DNA from: Escherichia phage phiWec172
Strand: one strand, 5' to 3'
Sequence record: LC739530.1
Length of the DNA: 64,000 nt
In this document: positions 9,494-17,052 of the stretch, one piece after another
How the letters are laid out: each line of letters starts with the position of its first letter
Position numbering within the stretch: position 1 is the first letter of the stretch
Program-made: the position numbers and the translations under genes
Notes under the pieces: generated by a model
Told to the model about the DNA's origin: nothing
What the model saw: only the letters and a program-made list of their open reading frames with translations
Database searches by the model: none

Positions 9494-11860
9494 TTAATCG
9501 TAAATTGTAGTCCCTTCTGGAACACACTTCACATCAAAGCCCAAGAACTTACTCACTTCGATGGGTGACACTTTATTCCAATCTAAATGAGAAAGCAAGA
9601 AGTTTTCTTGTTTTCTTTTTGAGAAGTAGTTTGTCACCTTAATAAACATACGGTCACCAGCTTTCTTAATTTTCTTGTAAAGCTTTGTATCATTATCAAG
9701 ACACCTTTTCAAATCTTGCAACACACTAATAGTGTAAGTGTATGCAAATTGTGCAGCAACGTATTGGATTTTACCGAACATTGCCTCAACAGCATCTTCA
9801 TTACCTTCTAGGAAGATAGTTTTGTTTGTGTCCCGTGAATAGCAATAACCATCAGAAATCTTCCTGTTATTGAACGTAAAGTTTCTGGTAATAATCCAAC
9901 AGCTTGTAAGGTTAAGGACACCACGCATACAGATGCGTGTCATATACCTGTTATGATTAATCCAATGAACATCAGTTAAGCTGTCGTTCAAGAGCTTCTC
10001 ATCTACTTCAATCCAGTCTTCTGGTATCTTTTTCCAATTTGCTTTTCGGAAAACATAGACTGTCTTCCCTATAACATTAGCAACTGACTTAGCTACATCT
10101 TCTGGAGATGAGCAAAAACATTCACCATCAACTGTGTCGCCAACTGCCTTAATGTAAAGCTGAGGTTCTTCAATTGTGTCTAAGTCTTCTGACACCTCTG
10201 TGTATGAGGCTACACCTTCTGCTGGAACAGCTTTCCAGAGTTTTACAACACCTCTTACAGCTTCTTTACGCTGATAGTGATGTTCCTTATCAGACATCTT
10301 CACAATCTTTAACAAGCTTTTATCAAGTTTGTGTAGGTTGATTAAGTCATCTAGCTCTTTTTCAGTCGAGAATACAAACACAATACCATTATATCTGTGA
10401 AACAGACTTGACTCACTGGCGTAATCTCGACATGCACCACGCAGAATCTGATTGCGGCCTACAGTCTTCTCAGTGCCATTTTTATTACGACGGTCATTAA
10501 TCACGAACAAAAACTGTTCAATTTGGCTTTTACGCATTGCACCAAAGATATTGAACATACTTGCCTCTTGAGTGTAGGAAAGTGCTGTTGCACGAATCTT
10601 ACTCTCTAAAGAGTTGAACTTGACATAAGCAACTGGATTATAAAGATAATCCACTTTAGGGATATTGTTCCCGTTCCTATCAACCTTGATATTACCTTTA
10701 CCGTCACGTTCATAAATGACTGAGCCGTCTTCTGCGTAGATAATCCCACGACGGATGTTTAGTAATTCTACTTCCAGAGAATCAAGCTTAACGCCTCCCC
10801 ACTCTAGCTTTGGACACACAACATTAAACATCTCTCGTGAGTTCAAACGTAACTCAGCATAAGCCTGTGCAGCATCCATGAGTGTAGGTTGGCTGTTAAC
10901 TTTCTTGATAACATCCTTTGTAATGGCTTCAGTTATCTTTTTAGTAGCCTCAATGATAACATTTTTTGTCGTATCATTCATCTGCAATGCTTCACGAGAA
11001 GCTGCAATAGCAACTGAACCAATAGGCATGTAAATGTTTACAAGGTCTACGCTCCTACGGAAAAACTCTGGCAAGACTTTGAAGAAATCATCACCAAGTA
11101 ATGCTTCCATATTAACTGGATAGGCAATATTACCCATCACCACATTAAACTCTGTCCTGTTACCACTAGAACGCCAGCTTTGCTTATGAATCATAGCGTC
11201 ATAAACACCTTCTTCACGAGCAATGACATTCATGTCTGCTAACACGTCATCATATACAATATTACTTTCTGGTTTTACAGCAAAGTATGAGTATACGTGA
11301 CCAGCCTCTTCAAAGAACTTTGAAATACGGTGGTCAGCAACTGCCACACGTACAGCTAAACCATTAGGTTCTTTTGTTGGGTTAGTGGTCAGCTTAGTTA
11401 CTTGAGGGATACCATTCTCAAGGTAAACAGAGTACTTATTAACAACACCATCAACATAGCTAGATACTGTGAATGACTGAGCAATTGCAAATGGAGATTT
11501 TGAACCGATACCCATTGCACCAATGTAATCATTAGAGTCATTCTTCGTAGAAGCCCCGTAGTTTAGGTACAAACTCATAACTTTATCATGAGTCAATCCA
11601 GTTCCAAAATCACGGACTTCAAAGTAAGGCTCAAAACGAGTAGGTAAATGCACATGGAACGGGATATTCTCTTTTCCAGCTTCTTTCTGAGCATCTACTG
11701 CGTTACATGACAGTTCACGAATCACTGCCCTTTCTTTAAAGGTATATACACCAGAACTCAAAAGGCTGAACATTTCAGGTGTCATTGTAATCTGTGCTTG
11801 AGATGTCTCCAAAGAAGTTGAACTCTTAATCACTTCTGCGTGGTCATTTACCATGCGCAT
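9494..11860 (-). CDS. rIIA: rIIA-like protein (N-terminal GHKL/HATPase-like domain)
   Basis: AVIRELSCNAVDAQ, FEVRDFGTGL, NDYIGAMGIGSKSPF match T4 rIIA N-terminal motifs; 788 aa. Confidence 0.7.
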   Translation of the reverse strand: MRMVNDHAEVIKSSTSLETSQAQITMTPEMFSLLSSGVYTFKERAVIRELSCNAVDAQKEAGKENIPFHVHLPTRFEPYFEVRDFGTGLTHDKVMSLYLNYGASTKNDSNDYIGAMGIGSKSPFAIAQSFTVSSYVDGVVNKYSVYLENGIPQVTKLTTNPTKEPNGLAVRVAVADHRISKFFEEAGHVYSYFAVKPESNIVYDDVLADMNVIAREEGVYDAMIHKQSWRSSGNRTEFNVVMGNIAYPVNMEALLGDDFFKVLPEFFRRSVDLVNIYMPIGSVAIAASREALQMNDTTKNVIIEATKKITEAITKDVIKKVNSQPTLMDAAQAYAELRLNSREMFNVVCPKLEWGGVKLDSLEVELLNIRRGIIYAEDGSVIYERDGKGNIKVDRNGNNIPKVDYLYNPVAYVKFNSLESKIRATALSYTQEASMFNIFGAMRKSQIEQFLFVINDRRNKNGTEKTVGRNQILRGACRDYASESSLFHRYNGIVFVFSTEKELDDLINLHKLDKSLLKIVKMSDKEHHYQRKEAVRGVVKLWKAVPAEGVASYTEVSEDLDTIEEPQLYIKAVGDTVDGECFCSSPEDVAKSVANVIGKTVYVFRKANWKKIPEDWIEVDEKLLNDSLTDVHWINHNRYMTRICMRGVLNLTSCWIITRNFTFNNRKISDGYCYSRDTNKTIFLEGNEDAVEAMFGKIQYVAAQFAYTYTISVLQDLKRCLDNDTKLYKKIKKAGDRMFIKVTNYFSKRKQENFLLSHLDWNKVSPIEVSKFLGFDVKCVPEGTTIYD

Positions 11861-11872
11861 AATACTTTCCTC

Positions 11873-12064
11873 TTAGTTTACTGTTAAATTACTTATTAAA
11901 CATTTTACCAGAACCACCACACATAGGGCAACAACCTGCTCTTGTATACCCTTCCCATTGCAGTAATCACACTTCTTGTACTCTGCATAGTACTTGCAAA
12001 GAAGGTAAACAAAAACTGCTACACTACTAAGTGACAGTAAAATTTCTATCCAATATGCTTGCAT
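11873..12064 (-). CDS. hypothetical small membrane protein
   Basis: 63 aa, hydrophobic N-terminus. Confidence 0.3.
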   Translation of the reverse strand: MQAYWIEILLSLSSVAVFVYLLCKYYAEYKKCDYCNGKGIQEQVVALCVVVLVKCLISNLTVN

Positions 12065-12381
12065 GACTCACCTCTCATATTTTTGTAAAGGATAAAGCTT
12101 CTGTCATGGACGATACTTGTAGATACTGCAAAGTTACTTTCAAGCATCTGTTTGTTTGGATTGTAGAAGCTTTCTTTAAACTCGTCAAGCGCAAATTGGT
12201 GATGTTGTGGAAGACCTTTTATACATATTTTTATTGTGATTGCTGCTGCAATCTTGCCAGTCAGTTCTTCTTTAGCTGCTACTAAAATTTTGTTAAGGAA
12301 CTTATGACCATTTTCAGGTTTCTTAATGTTCTCCCAACGTTCTTCTAAGACAATGTTGATATTCATCTCTTTGATTTTCAT
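12046..12381 (-). CDS. hypothetical protein
   Basis: 111-aa ORF; RBS GGAGAAAAC upstream. Confidence 0.4.
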   Translation of the reverse strand: MKIKEMNINIVLEERWENIKKPENGHKFLNKILVAAKEELTGKIAAAITIKICIKGLPQHHQFALDEFKESFYNPNKQMLESNFAVSTSIVHDRSFILYKNMRGESCKHIG

Positions 12382-12394
12382 AGTTTTCTCCAGA

Positions 12395-12422
12395 AATTAA
12401 AAAGGCTCCCGTAGGAGCCTCT
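12395..12422 (-). terminator. Intrinsic terminator after nadV (GGCUCC-UACG-GGAGCC then U5)
   Basis: GC stem with UNCG-type tetraloop and T-run on minus strand. Confidence 0.55.
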
Positions 12423-12434
12423 TATCATATACTT

Positions 12435-14216
12435 TTAAAGCTGCTTGTCAATATTATTTCGAATATCACCAAGAGATGTGTAACCGTACTGCTCAGAGTC
12501 ACTAAAGACTAAACGTAAAGCACAAGCTGGGTGGTCAAGTGCATCTGCAAAGCTCTGGAATCCATAGCCATCTACAGCTTTCAACTTATCACCATCCCAC
12601 ATAGGTGCTACACCACCAAAAGCAGACTTCTTAACACCACTATCTGTTTTAGGGTCTTTTGCAAGCATAATCTCTTTACCACCAATGCTTGCAAGAGTTG
12701 CTTTAACAGCAAATGCAAAGGTGTCACGAGTCATGTACTGGTAAGTGTAAGAGCCTACGCCAAACACTACGTTAGAGCTTGCAAAACCCATTTCATACAG
12801 ACGCTTCAGGATTTCGTTTGCACGTTCCAGCGTGATAGAGTCACCATAGATAAGGCCGATATGCTCATCCAGTACCTTAAACCCTTTAGAGTTAATAGTT
12901 CCCCCAAAGATGTTATACAGTGTCTTGATAGCTCCATCAATCTCCGCTACAGGACGTGTTACAACGTTTGCAGAACCAACCATATAAGCATTTTTCAACA
13001 GCACTGTATCAGCAACTTCAAAGTCTTCTCTGTCAACAACCATTTCGTAGCCTTCTGACAGTAGCCATCCAGCAATACCATAATTGATGTTTTCAAGCTT
13101 CATGTTCAGGACAGAGTTCAGCATTGTGTCACTTGCCTCTAGCTTGCTTAGGTGCTCGTAATAAGCCTTCTTAGCACACTCTAAGTGAATTGCTTTATAA
13201 CCTGTGACAATATGTACAGGGTCTCCAGAGTCAGGGCGAATTACCAGTTTGCCATCACGTTCCATAATTTCTTTACGGAGTGCTGGTAAGATTTCTGACA
13301 CAGTTCTCCAGAAGTTGTAAGTATCTGAAACAATACTTGCAATACCAGTTGGGTAAGTTTCTGTTAAGAAACGACGGAAGGTTTGTAACTCACCTTTAAA
13401 GCGTCTTTCTTCTTCAATCAACTCATTACCACCTTCCCAAGCAATGTTTGCACACATTACAGAGTGTTCAGTGGCTGGTACAGAGTTACCAATATCAGAG
13501 ATTGGGTAGGACTGACCGTAGATGCGTTTAGCTGTATAAACAGCAGGGAAACTATCAGTTCCTTTAAAGCTGGTTAAGTGACCTACAGCGTTAAATGCGT
13601 CATCAGTAAAGCCGGACATACCACGCATAGCAAAGTCATGGCACTGATAGGGTAGATGCAAGTCGTTGTCACAAGTAAGGTCAGCCCACTTCTTACAGAT
13701 ACGTTTGTAGTGCAATGCAATAGTTGCAATGGTACAAGCCTTCCAAATCTCAGCAGAGAAAGCATCTTCCAGATACCCAGCTACCCAATGGAAACCTGAA
13801 ATAGTGTTCTGGAAGACAATCATTGGGGCACGCATAGGGACAACTGTGCCTTCTTCTACAGCGTATACTTCAACTGGTAGATAACCTAAGTCGTTAAGTG
13901 CTTCCCAATGCTCTCGACCGATAGCATCTTTACCTAGAACACCGTTCATGACTTCTAAGATTTCGTCAATTGCTTCTTTTTTGTCACGTTCAAAGAAAGT
14001 GGCGTTCCAGTGGTCTATCAAGTAATCTTTAACAAAACGTTGAATACCAAAAGCCACTACACCGTCAATTGCTAAAGGGCTGTTAAACCATTTGTCACTA
14101 CGTGGTGTCAGGTTCAACATAAGATATTGCGTAGCATCTGGATACTGATATATATGTGATGCCTTGTAAGCATCTGCATTAAGACCTGCTGGTACTGCAT
14201 AAAGTGATTTAGTCAT
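12435..14216 (-). CDS. nadV: Nicotinamide phosphoribosyltransferase (NAMPT/NadV), with a roughly 90-aa internal insertion
   Basis: N-terminus DAYKASHIYQYP, core VIRPDSGDP and GLIYGDSI motifs match the NAMPT family; 593 aa versus about 490 typical. Confidence 0.75.
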   Translation of the reverse strand: MTKSLYAVPAGLNADAYKASHIYQYPDATQYLMLNLTPRSDKWFNSPLAIDGVVAFGIQRFVKDYLIDHWNATFFERDKKEAIDEILEVMNGVLGKDAIGREHWEALNDLGYLPVEVYAVEEGTVVPMRAPMIVFQNTISGFHWVAGYLEDAFSAEIWKACTIATIALHYKRICKKWADLTCDNDLHLPYQCHDFAMRGMSGFTDDAFNAVGHLTSFKGTDSFPAVYTAKRIYGQSYPISDIGNSVPATEHSVMCANIAWEGGNELIEEERRFKGELQTFRRFLTETYPTGIASIVSDTYNFWRTVSEILPALRKEIMERDGKLVIRPDSGDPVHIVTGYKAIHLECAKKAYYEHLSKLEASDTMLNSVLNMKLENINYGIAGWLLSEGYEMVVDREDFEVADTVLLKNAYMVGSANVVTRPVAEIDGAIKTLYNIFGGTINSKGFKVLDEHIGLIYGDSITLERANEILKRLYEMGFASSNVVFGVGSYTYQYMTRDTFAFAVKATLASIGGKEIMLAKDPKTDSGVKKSAFGGVAPMWDGDKLKAVDGYGFQSFADALDHPACALRLVFSDSEQYGYTSLGDIRNNIDKQL

Positions 14217-14231
14217 CTTTTAATCTCTCTC

Positions 14232-14723
14232 TTAGTTATGTCTTGCAAACTCACCATGAAGTTCTATTCGCTTTTTAATTACAGCTTCTTTTGCTTCTTC
14301 TACCGTTTTAAATCTTCCACAAAAGTATTCTTTACGGTAAAGCATGACTCTTGCTTTGTAAAGACCTGTTTGTTTACAAAAACTTACACCCTTCACACCA
14401 GTTTTATTATTCTTGTGTATACCCCTATTCCTCTGATTTTGTGACTTTGTGCTAAGTCTTAAATTCTCCAACTTATTATTAGCTTTATCAAGGTCTATGT
14501 GGTCTATCTCATATCCACTTGGTATCTCACCTCCAGACATAATCCATGCAATATTATGTGCATAGTACCTCTTCTTATTTATCTGGACTTGGATATAACC
14601 CTTCTTAGACCTTGTGCCAGCCACATTACCAGCAATAGCGGTACTGCAAAGGGTTACTCTCCAAATTAATAAACCTGTATCTGGTTCATATATTAGGTAT
14701 TTTTCAAAATAACCCTTATTCAT
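14232..14723 (-). CDS. HNH homing endonuclease with AP2 DNA-binding domain
   Basis: IDHIDLDKANNKLENLRLSTKSQN (HNH) and GVKGVSF..GLYKARV..GRFKTVEEAKEA (AP2-like). Confidence 0.7.
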   Translation of the reverse strand: MNKGYFEKYLIYEPDTGLLIWRVTLCSTAIAGNVAGTRSKKGYIQVQINKKRYYAHNIAWIMSGGEIPSGYEIDHIDLDKANNKLENLRLSTKSQNQRNRGIHKNNKTGVKGVSFCKQTGLYKARVMLYRKEYFCGRFKTVEEAKEAVIKKRIELHGEFARHN

Positions 14724-14731
14724 ACTGTTAC

Positions 14732-15628
14732 CTAATCAAGGTTTGCTACAGTAACTTGACTGTAATGTGTTAAGCCACGGTCTTTAGCTTCGCCTAAAGA
14801 GTTTGTAGTGTAAATATGGTCGATACCATTGTCAAGAAGGTTTTCAACATCTTTAGAGAAGATACCATGTGTTACATATAGTTCCACACGTTTTGCACCT
14901 GCTTCACGAAGATGTTTCGCTGCTTCTATGAAGGTTCGACCACCATCACAGATATCATCCAGAATCATGACGGTTTTATCTGTCAAATCAACATCATCAA
15001 GGATTCGCATACCAGTAATTTCACCAGTCTTAAGGTTACGCACTTTAGACATTGTGATGTATGGTTTATCCACCTCTTTAGCAGTCTCTGCAATCTTCTT
15101 AGCAGCACCTGCATCTGGGGCTACTAAGTAATCAATCAGTGGGTCATTTGCGTAGTGGACTGCAATCTCCTTTTGAGGAATACTCTGGAAGCAGTTAAAC
15201 AGGTTATCTGGAACGTAACTGTGAGGGTCAACTGCACAGACTGCACCAAACCCCATTGCATTTACCTGTTTAGCAAAAACCTTTAAAGCTGCTGCGTCGC
15301 CTTTAAACATGTGACGGTCATATCGTGCATTTGGTAAGTAGTAAAAGATGACAGTCTTTAAAGCATAATCATGAGGAATTAAATCATCAATTGCTTCTTT
15401 AGCAAGTGCCACAGCAAACAATGTGTCCTTATCATAACCTTTTACAATCATAATCACATTGTTGATAGATGATGCTGCATAAGCAGTGAAATCAACAAAC
15501 TCCGGTGAAAAGTGTCCACCAATCTCACCAGAAGGGAATTGGACGATGTTAAACTCTTCTTCATGAGTCCCTTTAGTTGGTGAATGAACTGTAACACGGA
15601 TAGATGTTTTCATAGTTTTCTCTCTCAA
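14732..15628 (-). CDS. prs: Ribose-phosphate pyrophosphokinase (PRPP synthetase)
   Basis: PRPP-binding motif VMILDDICDGGRTF; 298 aa. Confidence 0.7.
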   Translation of the reverse strand: MREKTMKTSIRVTVHSPTKGTHEEEFNIVQFPSGEIGGHFSPEFVDFTAYAASSINNVIMIVKGYDKDTLFAVALAKEAIDDLIPHDYALKTVIFYYLPNARYDRHMFKGDAAALKVFAKQVNAMGFGAVCAVDPHSYVPDNLFNCFQSIPQKEIAVHYANDPLIDYLVAPDAGAAKKIAETAKEVDKPYITMSKVRNLKTGEITGMRILDDVDLTDKTVMILDDICDGGRTFIEAAKHLREAGAKRVELYVTHGIFSKDVENLLDNGIDHIYTTNSLGEAKDRGLTHYSQVTVANLD

Positions 15629-15903
15629 TCAAAAGTTACGTTTGTTACTGCCATTGCAGATTTGCATTTTGCAGGGTCTACAACGTGATAAAGTACACTA
15701 CAGTTACCTGTGCTGTCTGGTACAGGCTTTACCCATTGCTGCTTTATAGTTGGCTCTCCTAAGTCTTTGTAAGAACCATCTGTAAAGTTGTTTACCATCT
15801 CAAGTGCAATTGGCTCTGGAACATGACCACGTATCATGTACATTTCACAACCATTACCTCCTTCACTGACTAATGGTAAAATCTCCCACTTTTCTTTAGC
15901 CAT
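15625..15903 (-). CDS. hypothetical protein
   Basis: 92-aa ORF. Confidence 0.4.
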   Translation of the reverse strand: MAKEKWEILPLVSEGGNGCEMYMIRGHVPEPIALEMVNNFTDGSYKDLGEPTIKQQWVKPVPDSTGNCSVLYHVVDPAKCKSAMAVTNVTFD

Positions 15904-16411
15904 TGTAAGTTGCCCTATAAACTGTCTCGAACTTCAACAGGAGAGATATTGCCAAATCTGTATAGTGGTTGTCAAGCACATCTGGCATATTATTTTTGAT
16001 ATATTTCTCTTGCTCTTCGTAGGTCATCTTAGGGGTACTTAAAAGACTATCCCCTTGCTTCTGGTTATCAAGTTTAGTCTGGATAAACCAGTTTGCACAG
16101 TGATGTTCACCACCTTTTGTAACAGGTTTGTGGTGACCTAATGTGAAGGATTGACTGCCTGTGTATCTGCAAAGTTTATTGAGTACTGTAATGGTGTTCT
16201 TCACAACAAAGCATTCATATAGGTTGTCTATGGTATAGTGTGGGTAATATCGAAATAATGCTCTTTCACGAGTACTCTCACGATTCCAGAGAATCATGTG
16301 ATTGGAGTTGGAAGGGTCGTATTGGTGAGAGTCAATGAACTCTTGACGTTCCTCAAAACTGAGTCTTAACACTGACATTGCAGCAGAACGTTTCAGATTT
16401 GACAGATACAT
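15896..16411 (-). CDS. hypothetical protein
   Basis: 171-aa ORF. Confidence 0.4.
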   Translation of the reverse strand: MYLSNLKRSAAMSVLRLSFEERQEFIDSHQYDPSNSNHMILWNRESTRERALFRYYPHYTIDNLYECFVVKNTITVLNKLCRYTGSQSFTLGHHKPVTKGGEHHCANWFIQTKLDNQKQGDSLLSTPKMTYEEQEKYIKNNMPDVLDNHYTDLAISLLLKFETVYRATYNG

Positions 16412-16462
16412 ATTATCTCCAAAATAAAAAGGGAACCTTTACAGTTCCCTTATAGTATCTGC

Positions 16463-16783
16463 TTACTGAGCTACTTTCAAGATTCTTGTGAATGGAATTT
16501 CACTTTCTTCCATTAACTCTTTAGTTTCTTTGGTAACTTTCACAAAGTTGTCTAGGCAGATAATCTTCTTATCTTTCTTACTATAGGTTAATTTAACCTT
16601 TTCAATATCTTTCTCAGAGCTTTTCTCTTCATTGAAGAGTTTTACAGCCTCTTTGAATGGGAGATATGAGCCATCATTATCACTAATGAATCCTGTACCA
16701 CAATAGTAGGAGTTATGCTCTCTAGCCATAAACTGGCACAGTAAGAAAATCTGTAATTTACGAGTGTTATAAACTTTGCTCAT
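16463..16783 (-). CDS. hypothetical protein
   Basis: 106-aa ORF. Confidence 0.4.
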   Translation of the reverse strand: MSKVYNTRKLQIFLLCQFMAREHNSYYCGTGFISDNDGSYLPFKEAVKLFNEEKSSEKDIEKVKLTYSKKDKKIICLDNFVKVTKETKELMEESEIPFTRILKVAQ

Positions 16784-16785
16784 GA

Positions 16786-17052
16786 TTATTTAGCCTTCTT
16801 ATTACGTTTACGGTTACGAGCTTTCTTAGCTGCTCGTTTAATAGCTGCTGCACCAGACGGACGGTGGGCTTGTTTCTTACCACCTTTGCCACGGCCTACA
16901 TAGATGTAAGGCTGCTGTTCAATTTGGCTTGTAAGAACCTGTGCAACCGCTGAAGCATCTACACCGACCTGCTTTCCAGTCATAGAAACAATTGCTGCTG
17001 CTTTTGCCAGTGCAGCTAAGAAACCAGCTTTCATATTACCTAAAATTCCCAT
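16786..17052 (-). CDS. hypothetical protein with highly basic C-terminal tail
   Basis: C-terminus AAIKRAAKKARNRKRNKKAK. Confidence 0.4.
   Translation of the reverse strand: MGILGNMKAGFLAALAKAAAIVSMTGKQVGVDASAVAQVLTSQIEQQPYIYVGRGKGGKKQAHRPSGAAAIKRAAKKARNRKRNKKAK

What the first reader, a model, noticed from the sequence alone, without database searches (positions are those of the whole stretch)
12435..14216. NadV carries a roughly 90-residue insertion after the RPDSGDP motif
The NAMPT homolog is 593 aa versus about 490 for canonical enzymes. By eye, the extra sequence lies between the conserved VIRPDSGDP motif and the GTINSKGFKVLDEHIGLIYGDSI region (VHIVTGYKAIHLECAKK...NIFGG). It has no intein signature (no terminal HN, no Cys/Ser-flanked block), so it looks like an inserted domain of unknown function.
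Basis: inference. Interest (0 to 1): 0.45.

Follow-up and report, generated by a model that had tools for sequence, protein, structure and literature searches.

The report
Clade-specific inserted subdomain in phage Namat
The gene is the NAD+-rebuilding anti-defence enzyme Namat of a Felix-O1-like phage, and it does carry a real, well-folded ~80-residue extra subdomain that is shared by its whole phage clade, matches no known domain and has never been studied, so the finding is genuine but only modestly surprising.

Summary
Observation confirmed, with corrections. The 593-aa ORF lies on the minus strand (12435..14216). Against solved homologues the alignment breaks after RPDSGDPVHIVTG and resumes at EIDGAIKTLYNIFGG. 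The net insertion is +77 aa relative to SPbetaL1 Namat (residues ~344-424), not ~90; the other ~25 extra residues sit at four smaller sites.

The protein is not a generic NadV. The window is a Felixounavirus, and the protein is 97% identical and equal in length to Bas63 gp80, the Namat of NAD+ reconstitution pathway 1. Its partner adps (Prs-like) lies upstream, and the Namat adenine-clamp signature GSYTYQYMTRD is present.

AlphaFold2 models the insert confidently, both in context (block-mean pLDDT 92-97) and alone (pLDDT 85, pTM 0.75), as a small alpha/beta unit. It evolves under purifying selection (dN/dS 0.08-0.25) but changes faster than the core. In this sample it marks a single clade, and by tblastn it was found in 253 of 1781 phage genomes carrying this family.

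The parts
12435..14216 (-). namat gene (593 aa): nicotinamide ADP-ribose transferase of NARP1, usually annotated as nicotinamide phosphoribosyltransferase / nadV
   Evidence: ORF. Pfam NAPRTase + NAMPT_N. 97% identity and equal length to Bas63/JohannRWettstein protein P0012. Best structural match is SPbetaL1 Namat 9w5x/9w5w, TM 0.95 on the target.
12945..13187 (-). Inserted alpha/beta subdomain, residues ~344-424. Boundaries are good to about +/-4 residues; the variable stretch between the conserved flanks is 340-427 = 12936..13199.
   Evidence: Gap in PDB alignments. Alignments A1/A2. AF2 block-mean pLDDT 92-97 across the insert in the full-length model, secondary structure beta-alpha-alpha-alpha-beta-beta-alpha-beta. 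Same fold when modelled alone. dN/dS 0.08-0.25. Coordinates.
13389..13445 (-). Second, smaller length-variable site (residues 258-276) after the catalytic-His motif ATEHSVMCANI: 21 aa here against 8 aa in baseline homologues
   Evidence: 15 gap positions against SPbetaL1 Namat. Alignment A1 columns 270-320. Lengths mapped on the tree.
13224..13238 (-). RPDSG motif (R327-G331). R327 and D329 correspond to SPbetaL1 R306/D308, which bind the NMN ribose. The barrel strand carrying them immediately precedes the insert.
   Evidence: Invariant columns. Residue mapping. Ligand contacts from PMC12774641.
12723..12755 (-). Selectivity-clamp helix signature GSYTYQYMTRD (G488-D498), the Namat-defining consensus GS-X-phi-X-phi-X-phi-TRD with aromatic X
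   Evidence: Sequence. Consensus definition in PMC12774641. G488, S489, Y492, T496, R497 and D498 are invariant in A1/A2.
14076..14102 (-). Selectivity-clamp loop (R39-P47, RSDKWFNSP). K42 aligns with SPbetaL1 R40, and W43 is the predicted adenine-stacking residue, as described for Bas63.
   Evidence: Alignment. Residues. The rule 'Lys/Tyr at position 3, next residue stacks (e.g. Bas63)' is in PMC12774641.
14732..15628 (-). adps (Prs-like ADPR pyrophosphokinase), the NARP1 partner gene. The true start is probably the ATG five codons inside the TTG-started ORF.
   Evidence: phrog_619 ribose-phosphate pyrophosphokinase, E 6e-97. TIGR01251. 78% identity to Bas63 gene 79.

Best explanation
[quoted passage not shown] The upstream Prs-like Adps converts ADP-ribose + ATP to ADPR-PP. 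Namat then joins ADPR-PP to nicotinamide to rebuild NAD+ after host NADase defences have cleaved it. The extra sequence is a lineage-specific, autonomously folding alpha/beta subdomain of about 80 residues (strand, three helices, beta-hairpin, helix, strand). It is spliced into the loop between the barrel strand carrying R327/D329 and the following helix. In insert-less homologues this linker is short, hydrophilic and variable in length. The subdomain is not part of the catalytic or adenine-clamp machinery, because every NAD+-contacting position of the insert-less SPbetaL1 enzyme is present outside it. It most likely arose by expansion of a permissive surface loop in the common ancestor of Felixounavirus-like phages and has been kept as a peripheral accessory module on the catalytic face of the barrel. 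There it would buttress the active-site rim or the dimer rather than perform chemistry. Shown here: the enzyme's identity, the insert's boundaries, its predicted foldedness, selection on it, its clade restriction and the absence of detectable relatives. Inferred: its spatial position (from barrel topology only) and its accessory, non-catalytic role.
For: Identity. The window is 100% identical to Escherichia phages phiWec177/174, among Felixounavirus hits. The protein is 97% identical to Bas63 gp80. The Bas63 79-80 operon counters SIR2-HerA and yields ADPR-PP in infected cells (bioRxiv 10.1101/2024.02.11.579819). adps lies upstream. SCH signature and SCL K42-W43 are present. The NAD+ contact residues map as D15, Y17, F195, R198, D221, A248, R327, D329, G458, D459, G488, S489, Y490, Y494, T496, R497, D498, plus the catalytic H251; all lie outside residues 344-424.
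Fold. The full model has pLDDT 94 and pTM 0.92, with confident secondary structure across 342-427. The core superposes on SPbetaL1 Namat with TM 0.95 on the target but only 0.78 on the query, as expected for about 100 unmatched residues. The insert alone (24-sequence alignment) gives pLDDT 84.8, pTM 0.75 and the same secondary structure.
Selection. dN/dS for the insert is 0.08 (within Felixounavirus), 0.22 (within the 605-608-aa group) and 0.25 (between groups), against 0.05, 0.09 and 0.12 for the core. Amino-acid identity to Suspvirus-like alleles is 43-46% in the insert and 82% in the core. GC content equals the core.
Clade restriction. In a core-only NJ tree all sequences with a 68-89-residue stretch form one clade. 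Baseline relatives have 11-16 residues there.
Permissive loop. Linkers in insert-less proteins are charged and variable, e.g. TGDDRDTEPTRSAEQKG and DIESESKTEFKG. Other NARP1 lineages carry different inserts of 20-91 residues at the same point, with no detectable homology to this one.
Dispensable for chemistry. The biochemistry and crystal structures I read were obtained with the insert-less SPbetaL1 enzyme.
Against: I could not obtain model coordinates, so the position of the insert relative to the adenine pocket, the partner protomer or the solvent is not measured. 'Rim of the catalytic face' rests only on the general rule that loops following barrel strands lie on the active-site side. Conservation of the acidic hairpin (D/E-E-D-x-D-G-A-x-T) and of G389-Y390 across the clade could reflect a specific binding function rather than packing alone. 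Expansions at this site and at the second site (residues 258-276) tend to co-occur in independent lineages, which hints at a function beyond neutral decoration. The insert-bearing protein has not been assayed in isolation in the papers read (the preprint reports that the Bas63 protein did not purify well). A catalytic or regulatory contribution in this clade is therefore not excluded.
Confidence: 0.6

Rival explanations
1. Neutral passenger. The insert is a tolerated expansion of a surface loop with no function of its own, and selection acts only to keep it folded so that it does not destabilise the enzyme.
For: The site is hypervariable in length across the family, with 11-16 residues in baseline homologues and 20 to 91 in other lineages. 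The insert evolves 2-4 times faster than the core at the protein level. The residues conserved across the clade are mainly glycines, aromatics and hydrophobics, as expected for packing. Insert-less enzymes are fully active.
Against: All 253 phage records matched by the insert query cover at least 80% of it, so no partly deleted allele was seen. It is retained across proteins only 46-58% identical overall. dN/dS stays well below 1. A compact 80-residue fold is unlikely to be kept this long at no benefit in a streamlined phage genome.
Confidence: 0.22
2. Protein-interaction module. The subdomain docks Adps (or another phage or host protein), for example to hand over labile ADPR-PP directly, or it mediates higher-order assembly.
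For: ADPR-PP readily gives a cyclic by-product (ADPR-cP is seen in vivo and in vitro), so channelling would be useful. [quoted passage not shown] Adps proteins of the insert-bearing clade have about 15-25 extra N-terminal-domain residues compared with Adps next to insert-less Namat (only six sequences). The insert carries a net negative charge (12 acidic against 7 basic residues) and an acidic hairpin.
Against: There is no direct evidence of any interaction. The Adps comparison is tiny and not phylogenetically controlled. An HNH gene separates adps from namat in this window, while other Felixounaviruses show different arrangements with the same insert, so tight co-translation is not required.
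Confidence: 0.13
3. Remnant of a mobile element read through in frame: a degenerate mini-intein, or a group I intron or homing-endonuclease scar.
For: The phage region is rich in homing endonucleases (an HNH ORF lies directly upstream of namat). The insert sits next to a catalytic motif, a typical intein location.
Confidence: 0.02
4. Nucleotide-binding or regulatory mini-domain. The helix-strand-Asp segment YGIAGWLLSEGYEMVVD resembles the alphaA-beta2-Asp part of a Rossmann dinucleotide fingerprint and could bind an adenine nucleotide allosterically.
Against: All these scores are at chance level. The G-x-x-G is not conserved in the clade: most members have LPHLDDWI... there. There is no beta1-Gly-rich loop, and the unit is too small for a Rossmann fold.
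Confidence: 0.03

Closest known systems
Namat (gp80) of Escherichia phage JohannRWettstein / Bas63, NARP1 (Osterman et al., bioRxiv 10.1101/2024.02.11.579819)
   Same: 593 aa, 97% identical, with the same insert, the same clamp motifs and the same adps partner. The operon was shown genetically to counter SIR2-HerA and to produce ADPR-PP in infected cells.
   Different: In Bas63 adps and namat abut. In this window an HNH endonuclease gene lies between them. The Bas63 protein was not characterised in vitro, and the insert is not discussed in the papers read.
SPbetaL1 Namat, crystal structures 9W5W/9W5X (PMC12774641)
   Same: Same fold (Foldseek TM 0.95 on the target, 37-38% identity). All NAD+-contact residues, the catalytic His, the SCH signature and an SCL stacking residue are conserved. 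It also sits in a NARP1 operon.
   Different: 491 aa. It has an 8-residue linker where this protein has 85 residues (net +77). It also lacks the 15-residue second insertion and has a 4-residue shorter SCL.
NAMPT / NadV enzymes (human NAMPT e.g. 2GVJ, HdNadV 9KE8, Vibrio phage KVP40 NadV of NARP2)
   Same: Type II phosphoribosyltransferase fold with NAMPT_N + NAPRTase domains, the RPDSG and GDS/GDG motifs and the catalytic His.
   Different: These enzymes prefer PRPP and make NMN, and they lack the aromatic GS-X-phi-X-phi-X-phi-TRD clamp. None has this insert. Human NAMPT is only 23-24% identical.
Other Namat lineages with insertions at the same loop (e.g. P0096/P0098 with 91 residues between the same flanks; P0081, P0082, P0101 with 44-59)
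   Same: Same insertion point between ...RPDSGxPxxIxCG and E..G.IE.LW.IFGG. P0096 is likewise encoded next to a Prs-like gene.
   Different: No detectable sequence homology between the insert types (hhalign probability 2% and 34%, the latter over the shared flank only). They lie outside the Felixounavirus-like clade in the core tree.
Mini-inteins
   Same: An in-frame extra segment inside a conserved enzyme, close to a catalytic motif.
   Different: No splice-junction residues, too short, alpha/beta rather than Hint fold, and no family hit.

Membership tests
Namat (NARP1 nicotinamide ADPR-transferase) | NAMPT-like type II phosphoribosyltransferase fold | tested here: met
   Pfam NAPRTase E 8e-35 + NAMPT_N. 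phmmer to Namat 9w5w at E 9e-127. Foldseek TM 0.95 on the target to 9w5x.
Namat (NARP1 nicotinamide ADPR-transferase) | Selectivity-clamp helix consensus GS-X-phi1-X-phi2-X-phi3-TRD with aromatic X (PMC12774641) | tested here: met
   G488-S-Y-T-Y-Q-Y-M-T-R-D498.
Namat (NARP1 nicotinamide ADPR-transferase) | Selectivity-clamp loop supplying an adenine-stacking residue (third residue Arg, or Lys/Tyr followed by the stacking residue) | tested here: met
   K42 aligns with SPbetaL1 R40 and is followed by W43, the arrangement the paper describes for Bas63. This is sequence-level only; stacking itself was not modelled.
Namat (NARP1 nicotinamide ADPR-transferase) | Encoded near an Adps (Prs-like) gene; the reference study looked within 10 genes | tested here: met
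   adps at 14732..15628(-), one gene (an HNH) away. The two genes are directly adjacent in Bas63.
Namat (NARP1 nicotinamide ADPR-transferase) | Conserved catalytic and NAD+-contact residues | tested here: met
   D15, Y17, F195, R198, D221, A248, H251, R327, D329, G458, D459, G488, S489, Y490, Y494, T496, R497, D498. Two conservative differences (S190->A196, A362->S460) are at positions the paper describes as a phosphate contact and a backbone/stacking contact.
Namat (NARP1 nicotinamide ADPR-transferase) | Catalyses ADPR-PP + nicotinamide -> NAD+ in preference to PRPP | not testable with these tools
   Shown in vitro only for the insert-less SPbetaL1 enzyme. For the 97%-identical Bas63 protein there is only operon-level in vivo evidence.
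NAMPT / NadV of NARP2 or classical salvage | Not associated with Adps (paired instead with an NMN adenylyltransferase) and lacking the aromatic clamp signature | tested here: not met
   Adps is present and the aromatic SCH signature is present. Presence or absence of an NMNAT gene in the window was not examined.
Intein | Cys/Ser/Thr as first residue, His-Asn at the end followed by Cys/Ser/Thr, Hint fold, at least about 130 aa | tested here: not met
Group I/II intron | Conserved RNA core structure, with the segment not under codon-level selection | tested here: not met
   No Rfam intron match at E <= 1 in 11000-17000. dN/dS 0.08-0.25 with an intact frame in the 28 Ounavirinae loci analysed and this window.
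Any known protein domain family (for the insert itself) | Significant sequence or structure match outside Namat | tested here: not met

The most novel reading that the evidence does not exclude
The insert is a previously undescribed fold that gives Felixounavirus-type Namat a capability the minimal enzyme lacks. Examples would be docking Adps to channel the labile ADPR-PP intermediate, adding a lid over the adenine pocket that changes substrate gating, or shielding the enzyme from a host counter-measure. The recurrent independent expansions of the same loop in other NARP1 lineages would then mark an arms-race interface on Namat.
Probability: 0.2. Interest if true: 0.55.

Novelty: new variant of a known kind. 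Interest (0 to 1): 0.3.

Why it matters
NARP1 is a widespread phage counter-defence; the source paper reports it in 4.3% of sequenced phages. All the mechanistic work I could find was done on the minimal, insert-less SPbetaL1 enzymes. Felix-O1-like phages are common therapeutic and typing phages, and they make up a visible share of NARP1 carriers: 253 of the 1781 phage records with a Namat/Nampt-family gene in this collection. All of them use a larger Namat with an uncharacterised 80-residue module and a second smaller insertion. If the module affects stability, assembly, substrate gating or Adps coupling, conclusions drawn from SPbetaL1 may not transfer directly. The finding also corrects a routine mis-annotation (nadV/NAMPT/'nicotinate phosphoribosyltransferase' rather than Namat). 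If the module is only a decorated loop, the finding is an ordinary example of lineage-specific loop expansion.

Tried and rejected
- **Group I intron or other RNA element.** The Rfam E-value scan of 11000-17000 gave only three chance-level hits, none an intron.
- **Intein.** No junction residues, too short, wrong fold.
- **Internal duplication of part of Namat.** hhalign of the insert profile against insert-less Namat gave probability 2%.
- **Copy of another gene in the same phage.** tblastn of the insert against the whole window found only itself; the next best hit had E 0.96.
- **Foreign DNA.** GC is 0.428 against 0.423 for the core, the composition profile is flat across the gene, and there are no flanking direct or inverted repeats.
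- **Homology to the other insert types at the same loop.** None beyond the shared flanks.
- **Rossmann-like nucleotide-binding reading of YGIAGWLLSEGYEMVVD.** Rejected: the scores are at chance level and the motif is not conserved in the clade.
- **P0121, the 1880-aa hit of the profile search.** This is a 14-fold tandem-repeat protein whose score is inflated by repetition, so it was dismissed.
- **PHROG families phrog_16547 and phrog_15800.** They suggested that some phages have a split namat. In the two records I inspected with extra DNA in the region (ESCO50, vB_SflM_004), the extra DNA lies outside an intact namat. This was not pursued further.
- **AFDB fold search.** The library was unavailable.
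Full report
**Observation.** The ORF at 12435..14216 is on the minus strand and encodes 593 aa. Pfam finds NAPRTase in two stretches plus NAMPT_N. phmmer against all PDB sequences gives the phage enzymes 9w5w/9w5x as best hits (E about 1e-126), followed by 9ke8 and then eukaryotic NAMPTs. Every hit is split into two blocks. Against 9w5x, query residues 5-343 align with 3-322 and query 428-555 with 330-457, so 85 query residues replace an 8-residue linker. The same alignment shows a 15-residue gap after ATEHSVMCANI and a 4-residue gap in the beta1-beta2 loop. Together with small terminal differences, these account for the 102-residue excess. The main insertion is therefore +77 aa, residues ~344-424, window ~12945..13187 on the minus strand.

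**What the gene is.** The 4.7-kb neighbourhood is 100% identical to Escherichia phages phiWec177 and phiWec174. It is 94-96% identical to many Escherichia and Salmonella phages, including records named or classified as Felixounavirus. Upstream on the same strand lie an HNH endonuclease ORF (14232..14723) and a Prs-like gene (14732..15628); rIIA lies downstream. The protein is 97% identical to, and the same length as, the 'nicotinamide phosphoribosyltransferase' of phage JohannRWettstein (Bas63).

The Bas63 gene pair 79-80 defined NARP1. Deleting it sensitises the phage to SIR2-HerA, and ADPR-PP appears only in infections with the wild-type phage. The homologous SPbetaL1 enzymes were shown in vitro to be Adps (ADPR + ATP -> ADPR-PP) and Namat (ADPR-PP + nicotinamide -> NAD+) (bioRxiv 10.1101/2024.02.11.579819).

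The 2026 structural paper (PMC12774641) defines Namat by an adenine 'selectivity clamp'. One part is a helix with the consensus GS-X-phi-X-phi-X-phi-TRD, where X is aromatic. The other is a beta1-beta2 loop that contributes a stacking residue. The window protein has GSYTYQYMTRD (488-498) and K42-W43 in the loop, the arrangement described for Bas63. All NAD+-contact positions of SPbetaL1 Namat map to conserved residues outside the insert. I therefore file the gene as Namat, not NadV/NAMPT. Catalysis itself could not be tested here.

**Is the insert a domain?** AlphaFold2 with a 62-sequence alignment gives pLDDT 94 and pTM 0.92 for the whole protein. Block-mean pLDDT across the insert is 92-97. 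The defined elements are strand 342-344, helices 345-358, 363-370 and 379-387, strands 392-395 and 401-406, helix 407-413 and strand 418-422. The core superposes on SPbetaL1 Namat with TM 0.95 normalised on the target but 0.78 on the query, as expected for about 100 unmatched residues. Residues 336-432 modelled alone with 24 homologous inserts give pLDDT 84.8, pTM 0.75 and the same secondary structure. The segment is thus predicted to fold on its own.

**Selection and composition.** I used 28 Ounavirinae loci from IMG/VR plus the window.

| Comparison | dN/dS, insert | dN/dS, core |
|---|---|---|
| Within 593-aa alleles | 0.08 | 0.05 |
| Within 605-608-aa alleles | 0.22 | 0.09 |
| Between the two groups | 0.25 | 0.12 |

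- Amino-acid identity to Suspvirus-like alleles is 43-46% in the insert against 82% in the core.
- GC is 0.428 in the insert against 0.423 in the core.
- Sliding windows show that the insert, the second insertion site and both termini are the fastest-evolving parts of a mosaic gene.
- The segment is coding and constrained, but less so than the catalytic core.

**Distribution.**
- tblastn of the insert finds it in 253 phage records. Nearly all are named as Escherichia, Salmonella, Shigella or Citrobacter phages or as Felixounavirus, and in every listed annotated record the match lies in the gene annotated as NAMPT or nicotinate PRTase (or in an unnamed 'hypothetical protein').
- A conserved C-terminal core segment finds 1781 phage records.
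- The general phage family profile phrog_448 has 500 positions and spans the protein without the insert.
- In the large protein database, homologues of 582-610 aa extend down to 46% identity, including a Yersinia and a Pectobacterium phage. All carry a recognisably related insert with conserved GY...AK...GYE(M/L)(V/I)V.(E/D)ED..A.T..L.
- In an NJ tree built from core columns only, every sequence with a 68-89-residue stretch falls in one clade, and baseline relatives have 11-16 residues.
- A distant member (P0061) and a member with a different insert type (P0096) are both encoded beside Prs-like genes.
- Insert-less relatives are likewise encoded beside Prs-like genes, on a 5.5-kb metagenomic contig (P0111) and in the Klebsiella chromosome (P0067), the latter next to an NrtR-like regulator.

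**The loop is a hot spot.** In insert-less proteins the linker is short, charged and variable in sequence. In other lineages it has grown to 20-59 or 91 residues, with sequences that show no homology to the Felixounavirus-type insert. Expansions at this site often coincide with expansions at the second site (residues 258-276). I could not test whether the two pack together.

**Origin and relatives of the insert.** Nothing was found.
- Pfam: best E 0.04.
- PHROGs: only the Namat fragment family.
- Profile of 24 inserts against 1.84 billion representative proteins: two Namat entries and one spurious repeat protein.
- PDB sequences: E 0.36.
- Foldseek against BFVD: best E 0.24.
- AFDB was unavailable.
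- There is no second copy in the window, no internal duplication, no flanking repeats and no intron-like RNA.
- Intein features are absent.

**Mechanism.** What is shown:
- the enzyme's identity;
- the catalytic and clamp residues all lie outside the insert;
- insert-less Namat is fully active (PMC12774641);
- the insert is predicted to be folded, is under selection, and is present in every Namat allele recovered from this clade.

What is inferred: the insert follows the barrel strand bearing R327/D329, which contact the NMN ribose. Established knowledge of alpha/beta-barrel type II phosphoribosyltransferases places strand-to-helix loops on the catalytic face. The subdomain should therefore sit at the rim of that face, next to the strand carrying G458-D459-S460, which contacts the AMP phosphate and ribose in SPbetaL1.

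My best reading (0.6) is a non-catalytic accessory subdomain that grew from a permissive loop and now buttresses the rim or the dimer. The rivals are:
- pure passenger (0.22);
- a docking module for Adps or another partner (0.13), with a weak lead that Adps in this clade has extra N-terminal residues;
- a nucleotide-binding mini-domain (0.03);
- a mobile-element remnant (0.02).

**Novelty and interest.** The gene is already known as Namat, with a 97%-identical orthologue studied in vivo. The insert must be visible in the published SPbetaL1/Bas63 alignment and AlphaFold3 model. It is not mentioned in the main texts or the held supplement that I searched. All biochemistry and crystallography used the insert-less enzyme, because the Bas63 protein purified poorly. 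This makes it a new variant of a known kind: real, clade-wide and uncharacterised, but not very surprising, since loop-inserted subdomains are common. Interest 0.3.

Noticed in passing
window 14232..14723 (-): An HNH homing-endonuclease ORF (163 aa, phrog_99 E 4e-68) sits between adps and namat. In Bas63 the two genes abut with no such ORF (L030). Its GC is lower (0.33-0.35) than that of the flanking genes (0.40-0.46), as expected for a mobile insertion that splits the NARP1 operon.
   Followed up: partly
window 13389..13445 (-), Namat residues 258-276: A second length-variable site after the catalytic-His motif: 21 aa here, 8 in baseline homologues, 32-35 in Suspvirus-like alleles and up to 45 elsewhere. 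Expansions here tend to co-occur with expansions at the main insertion site in independent lineages.
   Followed up: partly
window 12435..14216 compared with L015-L017, L020 and L032: namat is mosaic among Ounavirinae. Divergence peaks at residues 1-30, in the insert and at the C terminus, and synonymous divergence in the insert (0.36) exceeds that of the core (0.23). This suggests recombination between alleles. Shigella phage vB_SflM_004 carries a 604-aa allele.
   Followed up: partly
window 14732..15628 (-); alignment A5: The mechanical ORF for adps starts at a TTG, while the Bas63 annotation starts at the ATG five codons downstream (MKT...). Adps of the insert-bearing clade has about 15-25 more residues in its N-terminal domain than Adps encoded next to insert-less Namat (six sequences only).
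   Followed up: partly
L035 (Klebsiella michiganensis contig DAHJTQ010000013.1), 1211..4491: A chromosomal adps-like/namat-like pair (insert-less, 496 aa) lies beside a divergently oriented NUDIX + NrtR winged-helix regulator gene. This is consistent with the bacterial NARP1 homologues reported in PMC12774641 and suggests NAD-responsive regulation.
   Followed up: no
window 15896..16411 (-): A 171-aa ORF of unknown function (phrog_3500) has a weak HNH-endonuclease-like hit (phrog_2214, E 2.8e-4) and an H-x-K-P...GG...H-H-C-x-N-W stretch. It may be another degenerate homing-endonuclease gene in this region.
   Followed up: no
PHROG families phrog_16547 and phrog_15800: Separate PHROG families cover Namat residues 1-320 and 268-593, implying that some deposited phage genomes annotate namat as two overlapping ORFs (a frameshift or sequencing error, or a real split). 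Two records with extra DNA in the region had an intact namat.
   Followed up: partly
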